Source: Candidatus Kapaibacterium sp.
GTDB taxonomy: Bacteria > Patescibacteriota > Patescibacteriia > UBA9934
Length of the DNA: 43,189 nt
Direction: 5' to 3'
NCBI GenBank assembly: GCA_044350705.1
Contig: JBILHA010000001.1
Coordinates: 310,242 to 353,430 of the forward strand
The notes beneath the pieces are model-generated. The model had not been told where the DNA came from. It made no database searches and saw nothing but the letters and a program-made list of their open reading frames with translations. A program made the translations under genes and the position numbers. Shown piece by piece: positions 26,801 through 41,522 of this stretch (positions are counted from its first letter, which is position 1; the number at the start of each line of letters is the position of its first letter).

Positions 26801-26848
26801 AGGATACTTTTTGCATCCTAGCATGCTGAGATTTTGTGACAAGGAAAT

Positions 26849-26880
26849 AAAAAAACACCCTTTTAAAAGGGTGTTTTTTT
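26849..26880. terminator. Terminator, perfect 32-bp palindrome
   Basis: AAAAAAACACCCTTTTAAAAGGGTGTTTTTTT. Confidence 0.75.
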
Positions 26881-27754
26881 AGAGTACTTGTGCAAGAAAA
26901 CACACCGGTGATCCTTCCTTCCAATGCTCGGGAATTTTTGGAAACATAATTACTCCGTCATGCGTTGCGATAAGCGGGACAGTTCCATGGGTGCCAAGTA
27001 CATCTCCGGCTTTGAAAGCTTCAAATGAGCCTTCTCCTCGTGCCGGTGCGAAGGTAAAACCTTCTTGAGTGAGTAGAATGGTCTCTGTAAGACGATAACG
27101 TTTTCGGGTGGTTCGGTCGCGCGTTTGTTGCTCATGAGTTTCTTCGTGAACCCCGTTTTTTTCTTTGATCATATAGAGAACGCTGCGCATCATCTCAGGA
27201 ATGCGACTAAGGTCTTCGACCCATCCACTTTCATAACAAACGCTTTGTGCGCCGTGCGCGTTTGCATAGCCGATGGTTGTTCCTGCGATAACATCATTTG
27301 GTACAACGAGTTCTTTTTCGCAGGTAAAATAGGTGCAAAGTGCCTGCTGTGCTTGATCATCGGTGGCGATAACGAGAAATGGTTCTGACGGCTTATTGGT
27401 TGCGTGAAGATCAATAACGAGGTCGGCGCTTTTGAGAAGTGGAGCGAGGATTCGTGCGCGTTCTATTTCATAATCCGTTCGATCGCCTTCGAGCAGCGCA
27501 TCGATAAAGACACGATTGATGTCGGCGTGCGGCTCTGAGCCGCGCGTATTTTTTTCTATTGCGCGTGGGTTACCTAATGCAAGGATGAGCTTTCCTTTTT
27601 CTATGGTTATTTCTCTTTTTTCGCATTTTTCCTTGAGTTGCTTTACAACGGTGATACCTGTTTTTTCATTTCCGTGAATACCCCCCAGGAGTACGGTCGT
27701 TGGTCCAGGATTTTTTCCGGTGATTTCCCAGATGGCTTCTGCGATTTCTTGCAT
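26879..27754 (-). CDS. Succinylglutamate desuccinylase/aspartoacylase (M14-like) family protein
   Basis: GGIHGNE, GNPRA, DINRVF, IDLH, YESG; start set at ATG 27754 (the track's extension overlaps the GNAT). Confidence 0.85.
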   Translation of the reverse strand: MQEIAEAIWEITGKNPGPTTVLLGGIHGNEKTGITVVKQLKEKCEKREITIEKGKLILALGNPRAIEKNTRGSEPHADINRVFIDALLEGDRTDYEIERARILAPLLKSADLVIDLHATNKPSEPFLVIATDDQAQQALCTYFTCEKELVVPNDVIAGTTIGYANAHGAQSVCYESGWVEDLSRIPEMMRSVLYMIKEKNGVHEETHEQQTRDRTTRKRYRLTETILLTQEGFTFAPARGEGSFEAFKAGDVLGTHGTVPLIATHDGVIMFPKIPEHWKEGSPVCFLAQVL

Positions 27755-27801
27755 AAGATGTGAGAATAGTATGACAAAAGGTTTTTTGTTGGGAAGGGTT
27801 A

Positions 27802-27827
27802 CCCCTCCGGTCGCGGGACCGGAGGGG
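27802..27827 (-). terminator. GC-rich hairpin directly after the GNAT stop
   Basis: CCCCTCCGGTC-4nt-GACCGGAGGGG; no immediate U-tract. Confidence 0.5.
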
Positions 27828-27831
27828 ACGA

Positions 27832-28719
27832 TTACGCACGGCGGGCCATGAGCCAGTTCTTGAGTGGCGTGAGCCGCTCGGTGACGTGAATCACGTTCCA
27901 GTTGATGTCGAGGCCGGGCGCGGCCTTGTACATCCGGATCTGGTCGTACGTGTGGCCGTGGGTTTCTCCGAGACCAGGCAGGACTCCGCAGAACGTGTAG
28001 CCCTGTGCGCGCCACTGCCGGATTTCTTCGATCGCGTCGGGCCAGTTGATGGGCAGATCGACGAAGGTCGACCCGATCGCATGCTTCCCGATGTACGGGT
28101 TGTGGAGATGGGGATCGGGGCAGGGCGGAGGAAGATCCTCGTTCCATCCGCGCTCCATCACCATGCTCGGCACGATCGCGGCGATTACTTGGGCGATGTC
28201 ATCGGGGAGGTAGACGCGACGACGTCCGAAGCCGGTATCTCCCTGTAGCGCCCGCATGGCGAACGTCACGGTCTCAGGCTGACCGATGTGCTGCTTGATC
28301 CCTGGGTACTTCGTCACACTGATGCCCAGCGGCACGAATCCCTCGTGTTCGAGATTCAGCTGCGATGCGAGGTCTGGGCGGTTGCAGACCGGCTCAGAGA
28401 TGGCCGCGATCATGCCCTGGGCGATGGCGGCATCCAGCCGTGCATGCGTGAGGCGCTTAGCCACGCCGTTCCCGCGCTTTTCGGGGTCAATGATGATCCC
28501 CCCGAGCTCAACTACGCCATTGTGGTTGGGCACGGGCTTCGCTCGCGCGAAGCCGCGGATCTTGCCTTCCTTGCACTCGGCGACGACTTGGATGCCGATG
28601 CGAATGCCATCTTCCGTCAGCTGGTACGGGTAGTCCCCATACTCCTGCTGGTAAAGGTCATTGATGGCACCGATGTCGCGGGTGGTGACGGGGCGGACGA
28701 TGATTTCGGTGGTGCTCAT
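27832..28719 (-). CDS. GC-rich GNAT-family N-acetyltransferase with extra C-terminal domain
   Basis: IIVRPVT..D, ELGGIIIDPEKRGNGVAKRL (acetyl-CoA motif A), SQ.NLE..GF.P.G; GGAGG SD at 28725-28729. Confidence 0.78.
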   Translation of the reverse strand: MSTTEIIVRPVTTRDIGAINDLYQQEYGDYPYQLTEDGIRIGIQVVAECKEGKIRGFARAKPVPNHNGVVELGGIIIDPEKRGNGVAKRLTHARLDAAIAQGMIAAISEPVCNRPDLASQLNLEHEGFVPLGISVTKYPGIKQHIGQPETVTFAMRALQGDTGFGRRRVYLPDDIAQVIAAIVPSMVMERGWNEDLPPPCPDPHLHNPYIGKHAIGSTFVDLPINWPDAIEEIRQWRAQGYTFCGVLPGLGETHGHTYDQIRMYKAAPGLDINWNVIHVTERLTPLKNWLMARRA

Positions 28720-28798
28720 GGGTTCCTCCAGGGTTTTCCTGTGCGGGATTCGCCCTCTCTCGACATGAGCGAGGGCGAAGGAGGCACAGGAAGGCAAG

Positions 28799-28834
28799 AA
28801 AAAAACACCGCGTTTTATACGCGGTGTTTTTTTT
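28799..28834 (-). terminator. Attenuator terminator (segments 3:4)
   Basis: Minus strand AAAAAAAACACCGCGT-ataaa-ACGCGGTGTTTTTTT, between leader ORF and GNAT. Confidence 0.8.
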
Positions 28835-28863
28835 CATGAAGGTGAATTATTCGTTCATTATCT

Positions 28864-28944
28864 TCATGTTAAAGCAACACCGCGTTGCGGAGTAAAGAGG
28901 ACCACGAGAATAATGTGCATTGCGGTGTTGCGCACGGAATTCAT
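28864..28944 (-). CDS. Attenuator leader peptide MNSVRNTAMHIILVVLFTPQRGVALT
   Basis: 26-aa ORF just after a TTGACA/TATCGT promoter; Ile-Ile-Leu-Val-Val-Leu run; contains segments 1 and 2 of mutually exclusive hairpins. Confidence 0.72.
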   Translation of the reverse strand: MNSVRNTAMHIILVVLFTPQRGVALT

Positions 28945-28953
28945 ATTGGTTTT

Positions 28954-28983
28954 ACGATAACCTTAGATCTCCTTTATTGTCAA
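28954..28983 (-). promoter_or_regulatory. Sigma70-type promoter for leader/GNAT
   Basis: TTGACA (28983-28978), 18-nt spacer, TATCGT (28959-28954). Confidence 0.6.
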
Positions 28984-29087: not shown

Positions 29088-29732
29088 ATGTCAAAGCAAA
29101 TGGTTATGGCTTCGTTAGGGGTTTTGGTACTTCTTGGTGCGGGATGCGTCGAGAAGTCTCGGGAATATCGTGATGCTTCTGGTGAAACGCCGGAGAACAT
29201 GAAATATCGCGACCTCATTTGTGGAGCAGGTTTTAAAGAATTTGTCAGCGATCGTCATAATATTGAATTCTGTTATCCTGAGGACAATGATGAAGGAGAA
29301 GTGGTGACTGTTCGTGAAGATGGCGATGGGGTTATTCTTTCCGTTGATGGAGAGCCGAAGCGAAAGATCGAAATCGTAGAAATCGATCCTGATCAGTCTC
29401 GTGAAGAGATTGTGCTTGGATATGCCCTTGCACCAGAAGATGCTGAGGTAACTTGTGGAACGCTCAGCTTGGAGACGCTTTCTGAAGGCCAAGCGAACAT
29501 TATTCTTACCGGTGAAAAAAATGGAGAACAGACGCTTGAAGCTACGACGCAGTGTACGTTTGATGAACGAGAAGGGGATGCTCCGTTCAATGGTGGGGTG
29601 ATGCGCTCAGGAACGTTTATTTTCTATGATCGAGAGCCTGAGATCATGTATATCTTGTCTGGCGAGCAATATCCTTCATTAGGTATCGGTACTGATGCTT
29701 TCGTGCATTCCATCCAGCCTCAGAGGCCATAA
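29088..29732 (+). CDS. Acidic lipoprotein
   Basis: Lipobox VLLGAGC after a hydrophobic stretch. Confidence 0.75.
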   Translation: MSKQMVMASLGVLVLLGAGCVEKSREYRDASGETPENMKYRDLICGAGFKEFVSDRHNIEFCYPEDNDEGEVVTVREDGDGVILSVDGEPKRKIEIVEIDPDQSREEIVLGYALAPEDAEVTCGTLSLETLSEGQANIILTGEKNGEQTLEATTQCTFDEREGDAPFNGGVMRSGTFIFYDREPEIMYILSGEQYPSLGIGTDAFVHSIQPQRP

Positions 29733-41362: not shown

Positions 41363-41425
41363 TTTCCTACAACACCTAACCCCAGCATTGCGCTGGGCAC
41401 GGTGTTCACTCCTACGCAAATATTG

Positions 41426-41522
41426 AAGGTCTCTCGACCGGCACTTATTTGCGTAGGGTCGCGTTCCGTAAGGGCGCGGGGTTGTTGCCGAAAGGCGCAG
41501 CCGTCGGTTCGGGGGACCTTTT
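41426..41522 (+). ncRNA. Structured multi-branch RNA, c4/CI-antisense-like
   Basis: Closing stem 41426-41442/41503-41520 (G-U pairs on + only); two GNRA-capped hairpins (GTAA, GAAA); unpaired TATTTGCGTAGGG complementary to sites up- and downstream. Confidence 0.65.

What the first reader, a model, noticed from the sequence alone, without database searches (positions are those of the whole stretch)
28799..28983. Complete ilv-type ribosome-mediated attenuator controlling an acetyltransferase rather than a biosynthetic operon
Seen on the minus strand: promoter, then a 26-aa leader with the run I-I-L-V-V-L (28914-28897). Segment 1 GCAACACCGC (28931-28922) pairs perfectly with segment 2 (within 28885-28874). 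Segment 2 ACGCGGTGTT pairs perfectly with segment 3 AACACCGCGT (28828-28819). Segments 3:4 form a U-tailed terminator. A ribosome stalled on the control codons would mask 1 and free 2 (antitermination); one reaching the stop at 28864 masks 2 (termination). Known: same logic as the E. coli ilvGMEDA/ilvBN leaders. Inference: a likely auxotroph uses branched-chain tRNA charging, or drug-induced stalling, as a nutrient sensor to induce a GC-rich GNAT. I know of no described case in CPR.
Basis: partly seen in the sequence, partly recalled or inferred. Interest (0 to 1): 0.8.

Follow-up and report, generated by a model that had tools for sequence, protein, structure and literature searches.

The report
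Leader-peptide attenuator before an acetyltransferase
A short upstream reading frame and a set of competing RNA hairpins appear to let this tiny-genome, amino-acid-dependent bacterium switch on an acetyltransferase gene when ribosomes slow down at isoleucine, leucine and valine codons, and close relatives carry sister switches built around histidine and phenylalanine codons.

Summary
On the minus strand lie a promoter, a 26-codon ORF with the run I-I-L-V-V-L, four segments able to pair 1:2, 2:3 or 3:4, and a U-tailed terminator 80 nt before a GNAT gene.

It is not chance. 0 of 20,000 shuffles gave both complements. It is the only one of 128 terminators in the genome with this arrangement.

The whole leader recurs before a 61%-identical GNAT on an unrelated metagenome contig. 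There the stems are invariant and the loops have diverged.

Covariance models built from the leader found 10 further leaders in the same bacterial family. Eight are His-type, seven of them with tandem His codons: four precede a HisRS paralogue (a fifth probably does), two a SLOG gene and one an AstE-like gene. Two carry FFFFF.

All 13 leaders have a -10 box 7-11 nt before the ATG and a T at -1, the genome's native start context. They are probably leaderless.

ilvD, ilvC and leuB were not found in the genome.

Verdict: a real ribosome-mediated attenuator and a new lineage-specific family. That it senses Ile/Leu/Val is inferred, not shown. The GNAT's substrate is unknown. No RNA data were available.

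The parts
28978..28983 (-). -35 box TTGACA of the leader promoter
   Evidence: It is conserved on L016 and in G011. A -35-like hexamer lies 37-40 nt before the ATG in 10 of 13 family leaders.
28954..28959 (-). -10 box TATCGT (TAnnnT), ending 9 nt before the leader ATG. The transcript would start about 0-3 nt before the ATG, so it is leaderless or nearly so.
   Evidence: a TAnnnT box ends 7-11 nt before the ATG in 13 of 13 leaders. TAnnnT is enriched at -14 and -12 before genes genome-wide.
28864..28944 (-). Leader ORF of 26 codons plus stop: MNSVRNTAMHIILVVLFTPQRGVALT*
   Evidence: A 26-codon ORF is kept on L016, and a 30-codon ORF in G011 is kept in frame through a 3-nt deletion. The base before the ATG is T, and the start-context score sits at the 60th percentile of real starts and the 97th of internal ATGs.
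28897..28914 (-). Candidate control codons ATT ATT CTC GTG GTC CTC (I-I-L-V-V-L), unpaired in all three alternative folds
   Evidence: The unpaired stretch ACATTATTCTC is identical on L016, while neutral parts there are 26-36% identical.
28922..28931 (-). Segment 1 (anti-antiterminator 5' arm), GCAACACCGC
28874..28888 (-). Segment 2. It pairs with segment 1 through 28883-28874 (plus a 3-bp extension at 28888-28886) or with segment 3 through 28885-28876.
28835..28868 (-). Middle hairpin (CAUGAAG/CUUCAUG stem), nested inside and stacking on the 2:3 antiterminator. Its 5' arm holds the leader stop codon.
   Evidence: On L016 the stem is invariant and the loop is 26% identical with a 7-nt length difference. 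An equivalent nested hairpin occurs in the His-type leaders.
28799..28833 (-). Intrinsic terminator (segments 3:4): 15-bp stem, 5-nt loop, T-run of 7
   Evidence: -20.6 kcal/mol.
28736..28792 (-). Second, G+C-rich hairpin between the terminator and the GNAT ribosome-binding site. Its role is unknown.
   Evidence: 26-nt arms, 81% complementary. (z = -4.5). The core is conserved on L016.
28724..28729 (-). Shine-Dalgarno-like GGAGGA before the GNAT start. This is unusual in a genome that shows no SD enrichment.
27832..28719 (-). GNAT N-acetyltransferase gene, 295 aa: an N-terminal GNAT fold plus a C-terminal domain of about 125 aa. GC is 62% and GC3 80%, against GC3 of 39-40% in the flanking genes.
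   Evidence: PF00583, 34.7 bits, cut-off 20.7. (model pLDDT 94.9). (generic GNAT matches, Z up to 15.5). (composition).
27802..27827 (-). G+C-rich hairpin after the GNAT stop, with no T-run
   Evidence: read by eye.
26879..27754 (-). AstE/AspA-family deacylase-like gene on the same strand, 77 nt after the GNAT. It may be co-transcribed.
   Evidence: (PF24827, E 6e-23). The same family follows a His-type leader directly in G001 and sits just upstream of one in G825.

Best explanation
This is a ribosome-mediated (leader-peptide) transcription attenuator. It is one member of a lineage-specific family of such switches.

Proposed mechanism:
- Transcription starts a few bases before, or at, the leader ATG, so the 26-codon leader is translated without a Shine-Dalgarno site.
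- If no ribosome is on the leader, or the ribosome runs to the stop codon and covers segment 2, segments 3 and 4 form the terminator. Transcription then ends 80 nt before the GNAT gene.
- If the ribosome lingers on codons of roughly 9-16 (Met-His-Ile-Ile-Leu-Val-Val-Leu), it masks segment 1 or keeps it apart from segment 2. Segment 2 is left free to pair with segment 3, the terminator cannot form, and the GNAT is transcribed. The AstE-like deacylase behind it may be transcribed too.
- The most likely physiological signal is a shortage of charged tRNA-Ile, tRNA-Leu and tRNA-Val in an organism that cannot make these amino acids.

Shown here: the anatomy, its non-randomness, its conservation with the GNAT, the family with matched codon runs, the native start context and the lack of ilv/leu genes.

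Inferred: translation of the leader, termination and read-through, which codons matter, and what the GNAT does.
For: (1) Architecture and statistics: as given in the observation check.

(2) Geometry: with a 28-nt footprint, ribosomes whose P site is on codons 11-16 leave segment 2 free. A ribosome with the stop in the A site covers 28881-28854, which is most of segment 2, all but its first bases. This is my model, not a measurement.

(3) Conservation on L016, a 1,414-bp metagenome contig:
- The order is the same: promoter, 26-codon ORF, 1:2, middle hairpin, 3:4, second hairpin, GNAT.
- The leader ORF is 70 of 81 nt identical.
- By contrast the GNAT is 62% identical in nucleotides, its third positions 36%, and the middle-hairpin loop 5 of 19.
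- All three pairings are kept, at -16.9, -20.8 and -18.0 kcal/mol.

(4) Family: model R1 and model R2 were each run over 68 genomes of the family. Together with a search for the HisRS paralogue they gave 10 leaders beyond the window, L016 and G011.
- Eight are His-type. Seven of the eight carry HH plus a third His, for example MESMRNAFNVSHHTRHA*.
- Four of the eight precede a HisRS paralogue (PF13393, E 1e-43). A fifth probably does, but its contig ends.
- Two of the eight precede a SLOG gene and one an AstE-like gene.
- Two further leaders carry FFFFF.
- The five leaders found by R2 (G007b, G832, G011b, G001, G022) were not in that model.
- The N-termini are alike (window MNSVRN..., G010 MESMRN...). 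The four-segment design with a nested hairpin is the same.
- Two pairs show compensatory changes, for example G-C in 6 and A-U in 2.

(5) Start context:
- 13 of 13 leaders have T at -1 and a TAnnnT box ending 7-11 nt before the ATG.
- Genome-wide, T at -1 occurs at 77% of 107 clean starts against 15-17% of other ATGs, and there is no SD enrichment.

(6) Auxotrophy: ilvD, ilvC and leuB were each not found in G000, which is 100% complete by marker genes. Controls were positive in 14 of 14 genomes.

(7) The GNAT depends on read-through: no promoter-like site lies in 28720-28798, and the gene upstream is divergent.

(8) It is not an assembly chimera: a contig from another sample (run X3) runs unbroken across 27600-28840. 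Contigs of X4 and X5 bridge the left junction.
Against: - No RNA evidence exists. No holder of this DNA is on record as RNA, so the start site, termination and induction are unobserved.
- The ILV run is short and not strictly kept. L016 has I-I-L-A-V-L. The syntenic G011 leader (MSSVPNSMCVYFTLHITPLLGVILMMDHKK*) has no run, and its segments 1 and 2 are degraded.
- The control codons are common ones: ATT 53%, CTC 28%, GTG 27%, GTC 17% of their families.
- Keeping the frame open between the window and L016 is not significant by itself. Random placement of the same 11 substitutions keeps it open in 40% of trials, and 5 codons changed their amino acid against 2 silent changes.
- Before segment 4 exists, 2:3 is already the thermodynamic optimum without any ribosome (-35.0 kcal/mol). 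Default termination therefore depends on folding kinetics that I cannot compute.
- The GNAT has no known link to branched-chain amino acids. A full-length homologue in G176 has no leader.
- Only two ILV-type loci are known.
Confidence: 0.55

Rival explanations
1. The hardware is the same, but the physiological trigger is general translation stress. The main candidate is ribosome-targeting antibiotics from neighbouring microbes, with the GNAT acting as a drug-modifying resistance enzyme, as with the erm, cat, ABC-F and whiB7-type leaders.
For: - Many GNATs inactivate ribosome-targeting drugs. The structural neighbours include AAC(6') enzymes, streptothricin acetyltransferases and phosphinothricin acetyltransferases.
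- The gene is compositionally foreign (GC3 0.80) and carries an SD, unlike native genes.
- The central peptide HIIL.VLF and the tail PQRGVALT are kept between the two loci.
- Recalled, not tested: hydrophobic I/V-rich arrest motifs such as IFVI and IAVV in macrolide-sensing leaders.
- The whiB7 uORF shows that one attenuator can answer both to amino-acid starvation and to drugs (PMC10274678, abstract read).
Against: - Sister leaders carry textbook single-amino-acid runs, and the His type precedes a HisRS paralogue. That points to tRNA charging as the family's input.
- The best resistance-family match is far below cut-off: AAC(6')-If at 19.7 bits against a cut-off of 300.
- The structural matches are generic, covering residues 3-171 only.
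- No resistance context is seen.
Confidence: 0.2
2. The antitermination decision is made without a ribosome. A protein, a small ligand or an uncharged tRNA would bind the conserved unpaired stretch ACAUUAUUCUC in the loop of the 1:2 hairpin, and the ORF would be incidental.
For: - The 11 unpaired bases are identical on L016, including the third codon positions. That is nucleotide-level constraint rather than peptide-level constraint.
- The open frame alone is not significant (40%).
Against: - An ORF with the same promoter-to-ATG spacing and a T at -1 is present in 13 of 13 family leaders. In G011 it is kept in frame through a 3-nt deletion.
- What changes between subfamilies is the codon run itself: HH, FFFFF or IILVVL.
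- No T-box, riboswitch or other Rfam family reaches threshold.
- The stop codon sits where a terminating ribosome covers segment 2.
Confidence: 0.1
3. There is no switch. The hairpin is simply a terminator, or the end of a small independent transcript or peptide gene. On this view the GNAT is a poorly expressed foreign gene and the repeated segments are leftovers of duplication.
For: - Terminator stems of the same ACACCGC/GCGGTGT kind are common gene-end terminators across the phylum.
- The G011 copy looks decayed.
- In G011 a different G+C-rich gene follows the homologous leader.
Against: - The gene upstream is divergent, so this terminator ends no gene.
- Segments 1 and 2 are kept exactly on L016 while neutral sequence has diverged to 26-36% identity.
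- 0 of 20,000 shuffles reproduce the arrangement, and it is unique among 128 terminators.
- The design recurs with other stem sequences in 10 further leaders.
Confidence: 0.08

Closest known systems
E. coli ilvGMEDA (ilvL) and ilvBN (ivbL) leader-peptide attenuators, and the trp/his/leu/thr/phe class in general (recalled textbook knowledge; the modelling paper PMC1183508 was seen only in a search listing)
   Same: - A short leader ORF with a run of regulatory codons.
- Segments that pair 1:2, 2:3 or 3:4.
- A U-tailed terminator before the regulated gene.
- A ribosome at the control codons favours 2:3, and a ribosome at the stop codon favours 3:4.
   Different: - It is not homologous. The best Rfam hit is Leu_leader at 30 bits against a gathering score of 50, found on both strands, so it is the terminator only.
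- The leader has no Shine-Dalgarno site and is probably leaderless.
- The control codons lie in the loop between segments 1 and 2, not inside segment 1.
- An extra hairpin is nested in 2:3.
- The regulated gene is a GNAT in an organism with no ilv or leu pathway.
E. coli pheST attenuator (pheM leader), an aminoacyl-tRNA synthetase operon under leader-peptide attenuation (recalled)
   Same: The sister His-type leaders control a tRNA-synthetase (HisRS) paralogue through a run of cognate codons.
   Different: - The amino acid, the lineage and the sequences all differ.
- Here the synthetase is an extra paralogue, about 29% identical to the canonical HisRS of the same genome.
Mycobacterial polycysteine leaderless short-ORF attenuators (bioRxiv 10.1101/834739, abstract read)
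   Same: Leaderless sensory short ORFs with a run of one amino acid's codons, with several loci forming a ribosome-directed regulon.
   Different: By that abstract, those ORFs free a sequestered ribosome-binding site, which is translational control. This one carries a canonical intrinsic terminator, which is transcriptional control.
whiB7 uORF attenuator of mycobacteria (PMC10274678, abstract read)
   Same: A stall in a uORF gives antitermination. The amino-acid make-up of the uORF sets which starvation is sensed. The regulated functions are not biosynthetic.
   Different: The whiB7 uORF controls a transcription factor. It is Ala-enriched and variable rather than a tight run. There is no sequence relation.
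Drug-inducible leader-peptide attenuators: bmrB-bmrCD, mef/msr, yxjB, erm (PMC4191407, PMC4335068, PMC6851288; seen in a search listing only)
   Same: A leader ORF plus a terminator/antiterminator choice upstream of a non-biosynthetic, possibly protective gene.
   Different: There the stall is caused by a drug acting on a specific nascent peptide. No evidence for that exists here, and the sister leaders point to amino-acid sensing.

Membership tests
Ribosome-mediated leader-peptide transcription attenuators (functional class) | A short ORF in the 5' leader with a credible start | tested here: met
   - The 26-codon ORF is kept on L016, and an ORF is kept in frame in G011.
- T at -1 and the promoter spacing match native starts.
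- Translation itself was not observed.
Ribosome-mediated leader-peptide transcription attenuators (functional class) | A cluster of regulatory codons for the sensed amino acid(s) | tested here: met
   - I-I-L-V-V-L in the window and I-I-L-A-V-L on L016.
- The sister leaders carry HH(+H) or FFFFF.
- Weaker than classical cases: the run is lost in G011.
Ribosome-mediated leader-peptide transcription attenuators (functional class) | An intrinsic terminator between the leader and the regulated gene, with no promoter in between | tested here: met
Ribosome-mediated leader-peptide transcription attenuators (functional class) | Mutually exclusive 1:2, 2:3 and 3:4 pairings | tested here: met
   The pairings are kept on L016.
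Ribosome-mediated leader-peptide transcription attenuators (functional class) | Read-through depends on translation of the leader and on the supply of charged tRNA | not testable with these tools
   No RNA run was listed. This needs a reporter, a coupled in-vitro system or Term-seq.
Ribosome-mediated leader-peptide transcription attenuators (functional class) | The regulated gene serves the supply or use of the sensed amino acid | tested here: inconclusive
   - The GNAT's substrate is unknown.
- Among the sister His-type leaders the feature is met for the HisRS paralogue.
- It is unclear for the SLOG, AstE-like and small-ORF targets.
E. coli ilv, leu or thr leader RNA families (homology) | A match to the curated covariance model at its gathering score | tested here: not met
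   - No family is matched in this region at the gathering score.
- Leu_leader scores 30 against 50 bits and Thr_leader 23 against 55 bits. Leu_leader matches both strands alike, so it reads the terminator hairpin only.
T-box and riboswitch leaders | A match to a known aptamer or T-box model | tested here: not met
   nothing relevant appears even at E up to 10.
Drug-sensing arrest-peptide leaders (erm, cat or ABC-F type) | A known arrest motif in the leader and a cognate resistance gene downstream | tested here: inconclusive
   - There is only a recalled resemblance of ILVV/LAVL to I/V-rich macrolide arrest motifs.
- The GNAT's best resistance-family hit is far below cut-off, 19.7 against 300 bits.
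GNAT acetyltransferases (PF00583), for the regulated gene | A Pfam match above the gathering score, and the GNAT fold | tested here: met
   - 34.7 bits against a cut-off of 20.7.
- The model has pLDDT 94.9.
- Z reaches 15.5 to many GNAT structures over residues 3-171.

The most novel reading that the evidence does not exclude
This reduced-genome lineage may run a set of ribosome-read nutrient gauges: one modular, leaderless leader-peptide attenuator that has been duplicated and re-coded, with HH for histidine, FFFFF for phenylalanine and IILVVL for branched-chain amino acids. Each copy is wired to salvage or coping genes rather than biosynthesis. The targets seen are an extra HisRS, AstE-like deacylases, a SLOG protein, a GNAT and small proteins. 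Several of these genes are G+C-rich, carry a Shine-Dalgarno site and look newly acquired, as if foreign genes were plugged in behind resident attenuators. An obligate auxotroph would then read, amino acid by amino acid, what its surroundings or host supply.
Probability: 0.35. Interest if true: 0.8.

Novelty: new variant of a known kind. Interest (0 to 1): 0.62.

Why it matters
Leader-peptide attenuation is a classical mechanism, known mainly from amino-acid biosynthetic operons of organisms that make their own amino acids. Here the same logic appears in a 0.9-Mb genome without the pathway, on probably leaderless transcripts, and as a small family re-coded for different amino acids and attached to non-biosynthetic genes.

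If it works as read:
- It implies that transcription and translation are coupled in this lineage.
- It gives a direct handle on how ultra-small auxotrophs sense nutrient supply.
- It flags a rare two-domain GNAT (62 clusters among 1.84 billion representatives), a HisRS paralogue and AstE-like deacylases as starvation-response genes worth characterising.

I found no paper on attenuation in this group:
- 'Patescibacteria' + 'attenuator' gave 3 hits, all off-topic by title and abstract.
- 'Candidate Phyla Radiation' + 'transcription attenuation' gave 0.
- 'Patescibacteria' + 'leader peptide' gave 2 hits, seen in the listing only.

Tried and rejected
- Assembly chimera at the GC jump: rejected. 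A contig of run X3 spans 27600-28840, contigs of X4 and X5 bridge the left junction, and L016 shows the same leader-GNAT join.
- RNA evidence: no RNA holder was listed. All runs laid were DNA contigs.
- Leader by DNA similarity:
  - Among 40 relatives only the G011 terminator part matched. I first passed over it and later recognised it as a diverged homologue.
  - In the phylum sample, 21 of 401 genomes matched, G000 itself counted. All matches outside G000 are short pieces of 18-44 nt. The thirteen I printed, twelve of them from this search, are ordinary gene-end terminators, except the G011 locus carried over.
- Pattern scan of species-representative genomes for segments 1-2-3: 18 stretches, all unrelated (a Pseudomonas coding region, actinobacterial repeats). 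The viral contigs gave 0.
- GNAT homologues with genomic context:
  - As a result the contexts of P0003-P0035 could not be seen.
  - The HMM search found full-length homologues in 2 of 401 phylum genomes and 2 of 401 class genomes, namely G000 and G176 in both.
  - G176 has no leader.
- Substrate of the GNAT: Pfam, NCBIfam, Foldseek, VIA-align and the Atlas give only generic GNAT neighbours.
- Other attenuators in G000: a scan for short ORF plus terminator upstream of 1,215 ORFs gave only this one as convincing.
- L016's flanking ORF matched nothing in 61 relatives.
- The weak R1 and R2 hits L076-L079, L120 and L121 look like plain terminators or gene ends. R2 hits with E above 1e-3 (L122-L130, L133-L139) were not inspected.
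- No supplementary files of papers were consulted.
Full report
**1. What is in the window**

Read on the minus strand, the 289-bp gap between a divergent lipoprotein-like gene (29088-29732, + strand) and a GNAT gene (28719-27832) holds these parts in order:
- TTGACA (28983-28978), an 18-nt spacer, then TATCGT (28959-28954), then 9 nt.
- A 26-codon ORF (28944-28864): MNSVRNTAMHIILVVLFTPQRGVALT*.
- A hairpin at 28868-28835.
- A perfect 15-bp hairpin at 28833-28799, with an A-run before it and seven T after it.
- A G+C-rich hairpin at 28792-28736.
- GGAGGA (28729-28724) and the GNAT start codon.

Every coordinate in the finding is right:
- Segment 1 (28931-28922) is a perfect 10-nt complement of 28883-28874.
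- Segment 2 (28885-28876) is a perfect 10-nt complement of segment 3 (28828-28819).
- Segments 3 and 4 form the terminator.

**2. More than chance**

- The RNA folds into 1:2 + middle hairpin + 3:4 at -47.9 kcal/mol, z = -5.35. None of 200 shuffles folds as well.
- In 20,000 dinucleotide shuffles of the 117 nt upstream of the terminator, a 10-nt complement to segment 3 arose once. That together with a second upstream complement never arose.
- The genome has 128 perfect-stem terminators. Two have an upstream complement of 8 nt or more, and only this one also has an anti-antiterminator.
- A looser scan upstream of 1,215 ORFs found no second convincing case in this genome.
- The three pairings are balanced: 1:2 -19.0, 2:3 with its nested hairpin -23.5, 3:4 -20.6 kcal/mol.

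With a 28-nt footprint:
- A ribosome with its P site on codons 11-16 leaves segment 2 free.
- A ribosome with the stop codon in its A site covers 28881-28854, which is most of segment 2, all but its first bases.

One point cuts the other way. Before segment 4 is made, 2:3 is already the optimum without any ribosome (-35.0 kcal/mol). Default termination must therefore rest on 1:2 forming first, which I cannot compute.

**3. The regulated gene and its surroundings**

- The gene is a 295-aa GNAT (PF00583, 34.7 bits). The model has pLDDT 94.9. Only generic GNAT neighbours match, over residues 3-171, and no NCBIfam match comes near its cut-off.
- The family is small: 62 clusters at E up to 1e-3 among 1.84 billion representatives.
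- Its composition is foreign. GC3 is 0.80, against 0.39-0.40 in the flanking genes. However, the genome has dozens of such G+C-rich islands.
- It is not a chimera. A contig from another sample spans 27600-28840, and two further samples bridge the left junction.
- No promoter-like site lies between the terminator and the GNAT.
- An AstE/AspA-like deacylase gene follows 77 nt later on the same strand, after a hairpin without a T-run.
- ilvD, ilvC and leuB were not found in the genome, which is 100% complete by marker genes. The auxotrophy guess therefore holds.

**4. A second locus**

The only close GNAT relative in the metagenome collection (61% identity, contig L016) has the same leader in the same order.
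- The -35 box is identical.
- The ORF again has 26 codons: MQSAYNTAMHIILAVLFIPQRGVALT*.
- All stems are unchanged, and all three pairings are kept.

The leader ORF is 86% identical (70 of 81 nt). By contrast, the GNAT's third codon positions are 36% identical and the middle-hairpin loop is 5 of 19. Neutral sequence has therefore saturated, and the leader is under strong constraint.

The 11 unpaired bases that cover the His-Ile-Ile-Leu codons are identical in both loci.

Against a peptide-level reading:
- 5 codons changed their amino acid and only 2 changes were silent.
- Random substitutions keep the frame open 40% of the time.

**5. A family of such leaders**

This is the decisive evidence.

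*The syntenic copy in G011.* G011 belongs to the same genus. Next to its homologue of the lipoprotein gene (42% identity) lies a diverged copy of the leader.
- It has the same -35 box, the same terminator stem and an ORF kept in frame through a 3-nt deletion.
- Segments 1 and 2 are degraded and there is no codon run.
- It is followed by a different G+C-rich gene of 381 aa with no family match.

*Model R1.* A covariance model of the three leaders, run on 68 genomes of the family, found:
- In G825, a leader MTFSRDTMNVFHHLRFA* before a HisRS paralogue (PF13393, E 1e-43).
- In G047, a leader MRYLSTASFFFFFSHSDGDALI* before a 58-codon ORF that carries an SD.

*The HisRS paralogue.* It occurs in 5 of 68 genomes. 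The 4 with upstream sequence all carry the leader: MECIRNIFNVSHHTRHA*, MESMRNAFNVSHHTRHA* and MSDMKSMCQTKIVLRHTRFA*, besides G825's.

*Model R2.* A sequence-only model of 8 leaders found five more that were not in it:
- Two His-type leaders before a SLOG cluster-4 gene.
- One His-type leader before what looks like the paralogue, at a contig end.
- One His-type leader before an AstE/AspA-like gene.
- A second FFFFF leader.

*Shared design.*
- All share the four-segment plan with a hairpin nested in 2:3, but with different stem sequences.
- RNAalifold finds 2 pairs with compensatory changes.
- The N-termini of the window leader (MNSVRN...) and of the G010 leader (MESMRN...) are alike, so these leaders are paralogues.
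- The codon run sits at about codons 9-16 in every type.

A family in which the run is HH(+H) before a HisRS gene and FFFFF elsewhere is the hallmark of amino-acid-sensing attenuation. It makes the I-I-L-V-V-L run of the window credible as control codons.

**6. Is the leader translated?**

There is no Shine-Dalgarno site, but this genome hardly uses one.
- GGAG-type motifs precede 13.5% of 650 long ORFs, the same as background. They show no positional peak before 107 clean starts.
- This holds although the 16S 3' end carries the usual anti-SD.
- Instead, 77% of clean starts have T at -1, against 15-17% of other ATGs.
- TAnnnT boxes peak at -14 and -12, which suggests frequent leaderless or very short 5' ends.

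The leader fits this native pattern.
- Its ATG has T at -1 and scores at the 60th percentile of real starts.
- In 13 of 13 family leaders the -10 box ends 7-11 nt before the ATG and the base at -1 is T.
- The GNAT start has the opposite pattern, an SD and no T at -1, which fits a foreign origin.

**7. Mechanism and rivals**

Best reading (0.55): a leaderless leader-peptide transcription attenuator. Slow decoding of the Ile/Leu/Val codons, caused by scarce charged tRNA in an auxotroph, frees segment 2. The 2:3 antiterminator then forms and the GNAT is transcribed, perhaps with the AstE-like gene.

Rivals:
- The same device answering to general translation stress or antibiotics, with the GNAT as a drug-modifying enzyme (0.2).
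- A ribosome-independent factor binding the conserved loop (0.1).
- No switch at all (0.08).

The sister leaders argue for charging as the input. The unknown GNAT substrate and the missing RNA data keep the rivals alive.

**8. Comparison with known systems**

- It works like the E. coli ilv, leu, his and phe leaders but is not a member of any curated family.
- Leaderless sensory short ORFs are known from mycobacteria, where by the abstract they act on translation (10.1101/834739).
- The whiB7 uORF shows amino-acid-dependent antitermination of a non-biosynthetic gene (PMC10274678, abstract).
- I found nothing in print on attenuation in this bacterial group.
'CPR' is consistent with the 0.91-Mb genome, but I could not verify it.

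**9. Verdict**

The feature is real, correctly described and correctly interpreted in its logic. It is a new, lineage-specific family of a classical mechanism, with unusual targets. Ile/Leu/Val specificity and the GNAT's role remain to be shown.

Noticed in passing
Relatives: L074:1501-1665(-), L081:2725-2902(-), L082:1322-1488(+), L083:2722-2889(-), L131:1501-1662(-), L117:1203-1362(-), L132:1501-1655(+), L118:1501-1657(+): Eight His-type leader-peptide attenuators, mostly ending ...SHHTRHA*. Four precede a HisRS paralogue of about 404 aa (a fifth probably does). That paralogue is only about 29% identical to the canonical HisRS of the same genomes. Two precede a SLOG cluster-4 gene and one an AstE/AspA-like gene.
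   Followed up: partly
L075:1501-1661(-) in G047 and L119:1501-1635(+) in G022: Two leaders with five consecutive Phe codons and the same four-segment design. They are followed by small ORFs of 58 and 102 codons that match no family. The G047 ORF has an SD-like GAGGAG and its own terminator. A HAD hydrolase gene and another GNAT lie further downstream in G047.
   Followed up: partly
Whole genome G000 (window included): Start codons show no Shine-Dalgarno enrichment, although the 16S 3' end carries a canonical anti-SD. Instead, 77% of 107 clean starts have T at -1 (background 15-17%). TAnnnT boxes peak 12-14 nt upstream, which suggests widespread leaderless or near-leaderless mRNAs.
   Followed up: partly
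window 27800-28797, and dozens of other places in G000: The genome averages 48-50% GC but holds many islands of 0.5-3 kb at 58-80% GC. The GNAT (GC3 0.80) is one of them. The gene behind the homologous leader in G011 is also G+C-rich (GC3 0.77) and is preceded by an SD-like GAGGGA. Whether foreign genes are placed behind resident attenuators is open.
   Followed up: no
window 28736-28792 (-): A conserved G+C-rich hairpin lies between the terminator and the GNAT start. In the MFE folds of both the window and L016, the Shine-Dalgarno bases are partly paired with upstream C-rich bases (UUCUU.CC with GGAGGAA, GCCCC with GGGG). This may be a second, translational layer of control, or chance.
   Followed up: partly
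window 26879-27754 (-); G000:C1:165951-166799 and 446427-447164: G000 has three AstE/AspA-family paralogues (43% and 30% identity to the window's copy). Members of this family sit next to attenuators in three genomes (window, G001, G825). In G176 the GNAT homologue follows an M20 peptidase gene. This hints at a link between these GNATs and N-acyl-amino-acid hydrolases.
   Followed up: partly
window 41373-41502 (+): A match to the Rfam LOOT RNA (RF03000) at 52 bits, above its gathering score of 46.4. It is the only Rfam family found in the window at threshold.
   Followed up: no
window 26848-26881 (-): A symmetric A-run/stem/T-run terminator (TAAAAAAACACCC...GGGTGTTTTTTTA) lies between the AstE-like gene and the next gene. 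Terminators with ACACC(G)C/G(C)GGTGT stems recur at gene ends in many genomes of the phylum.
   Followed up: no
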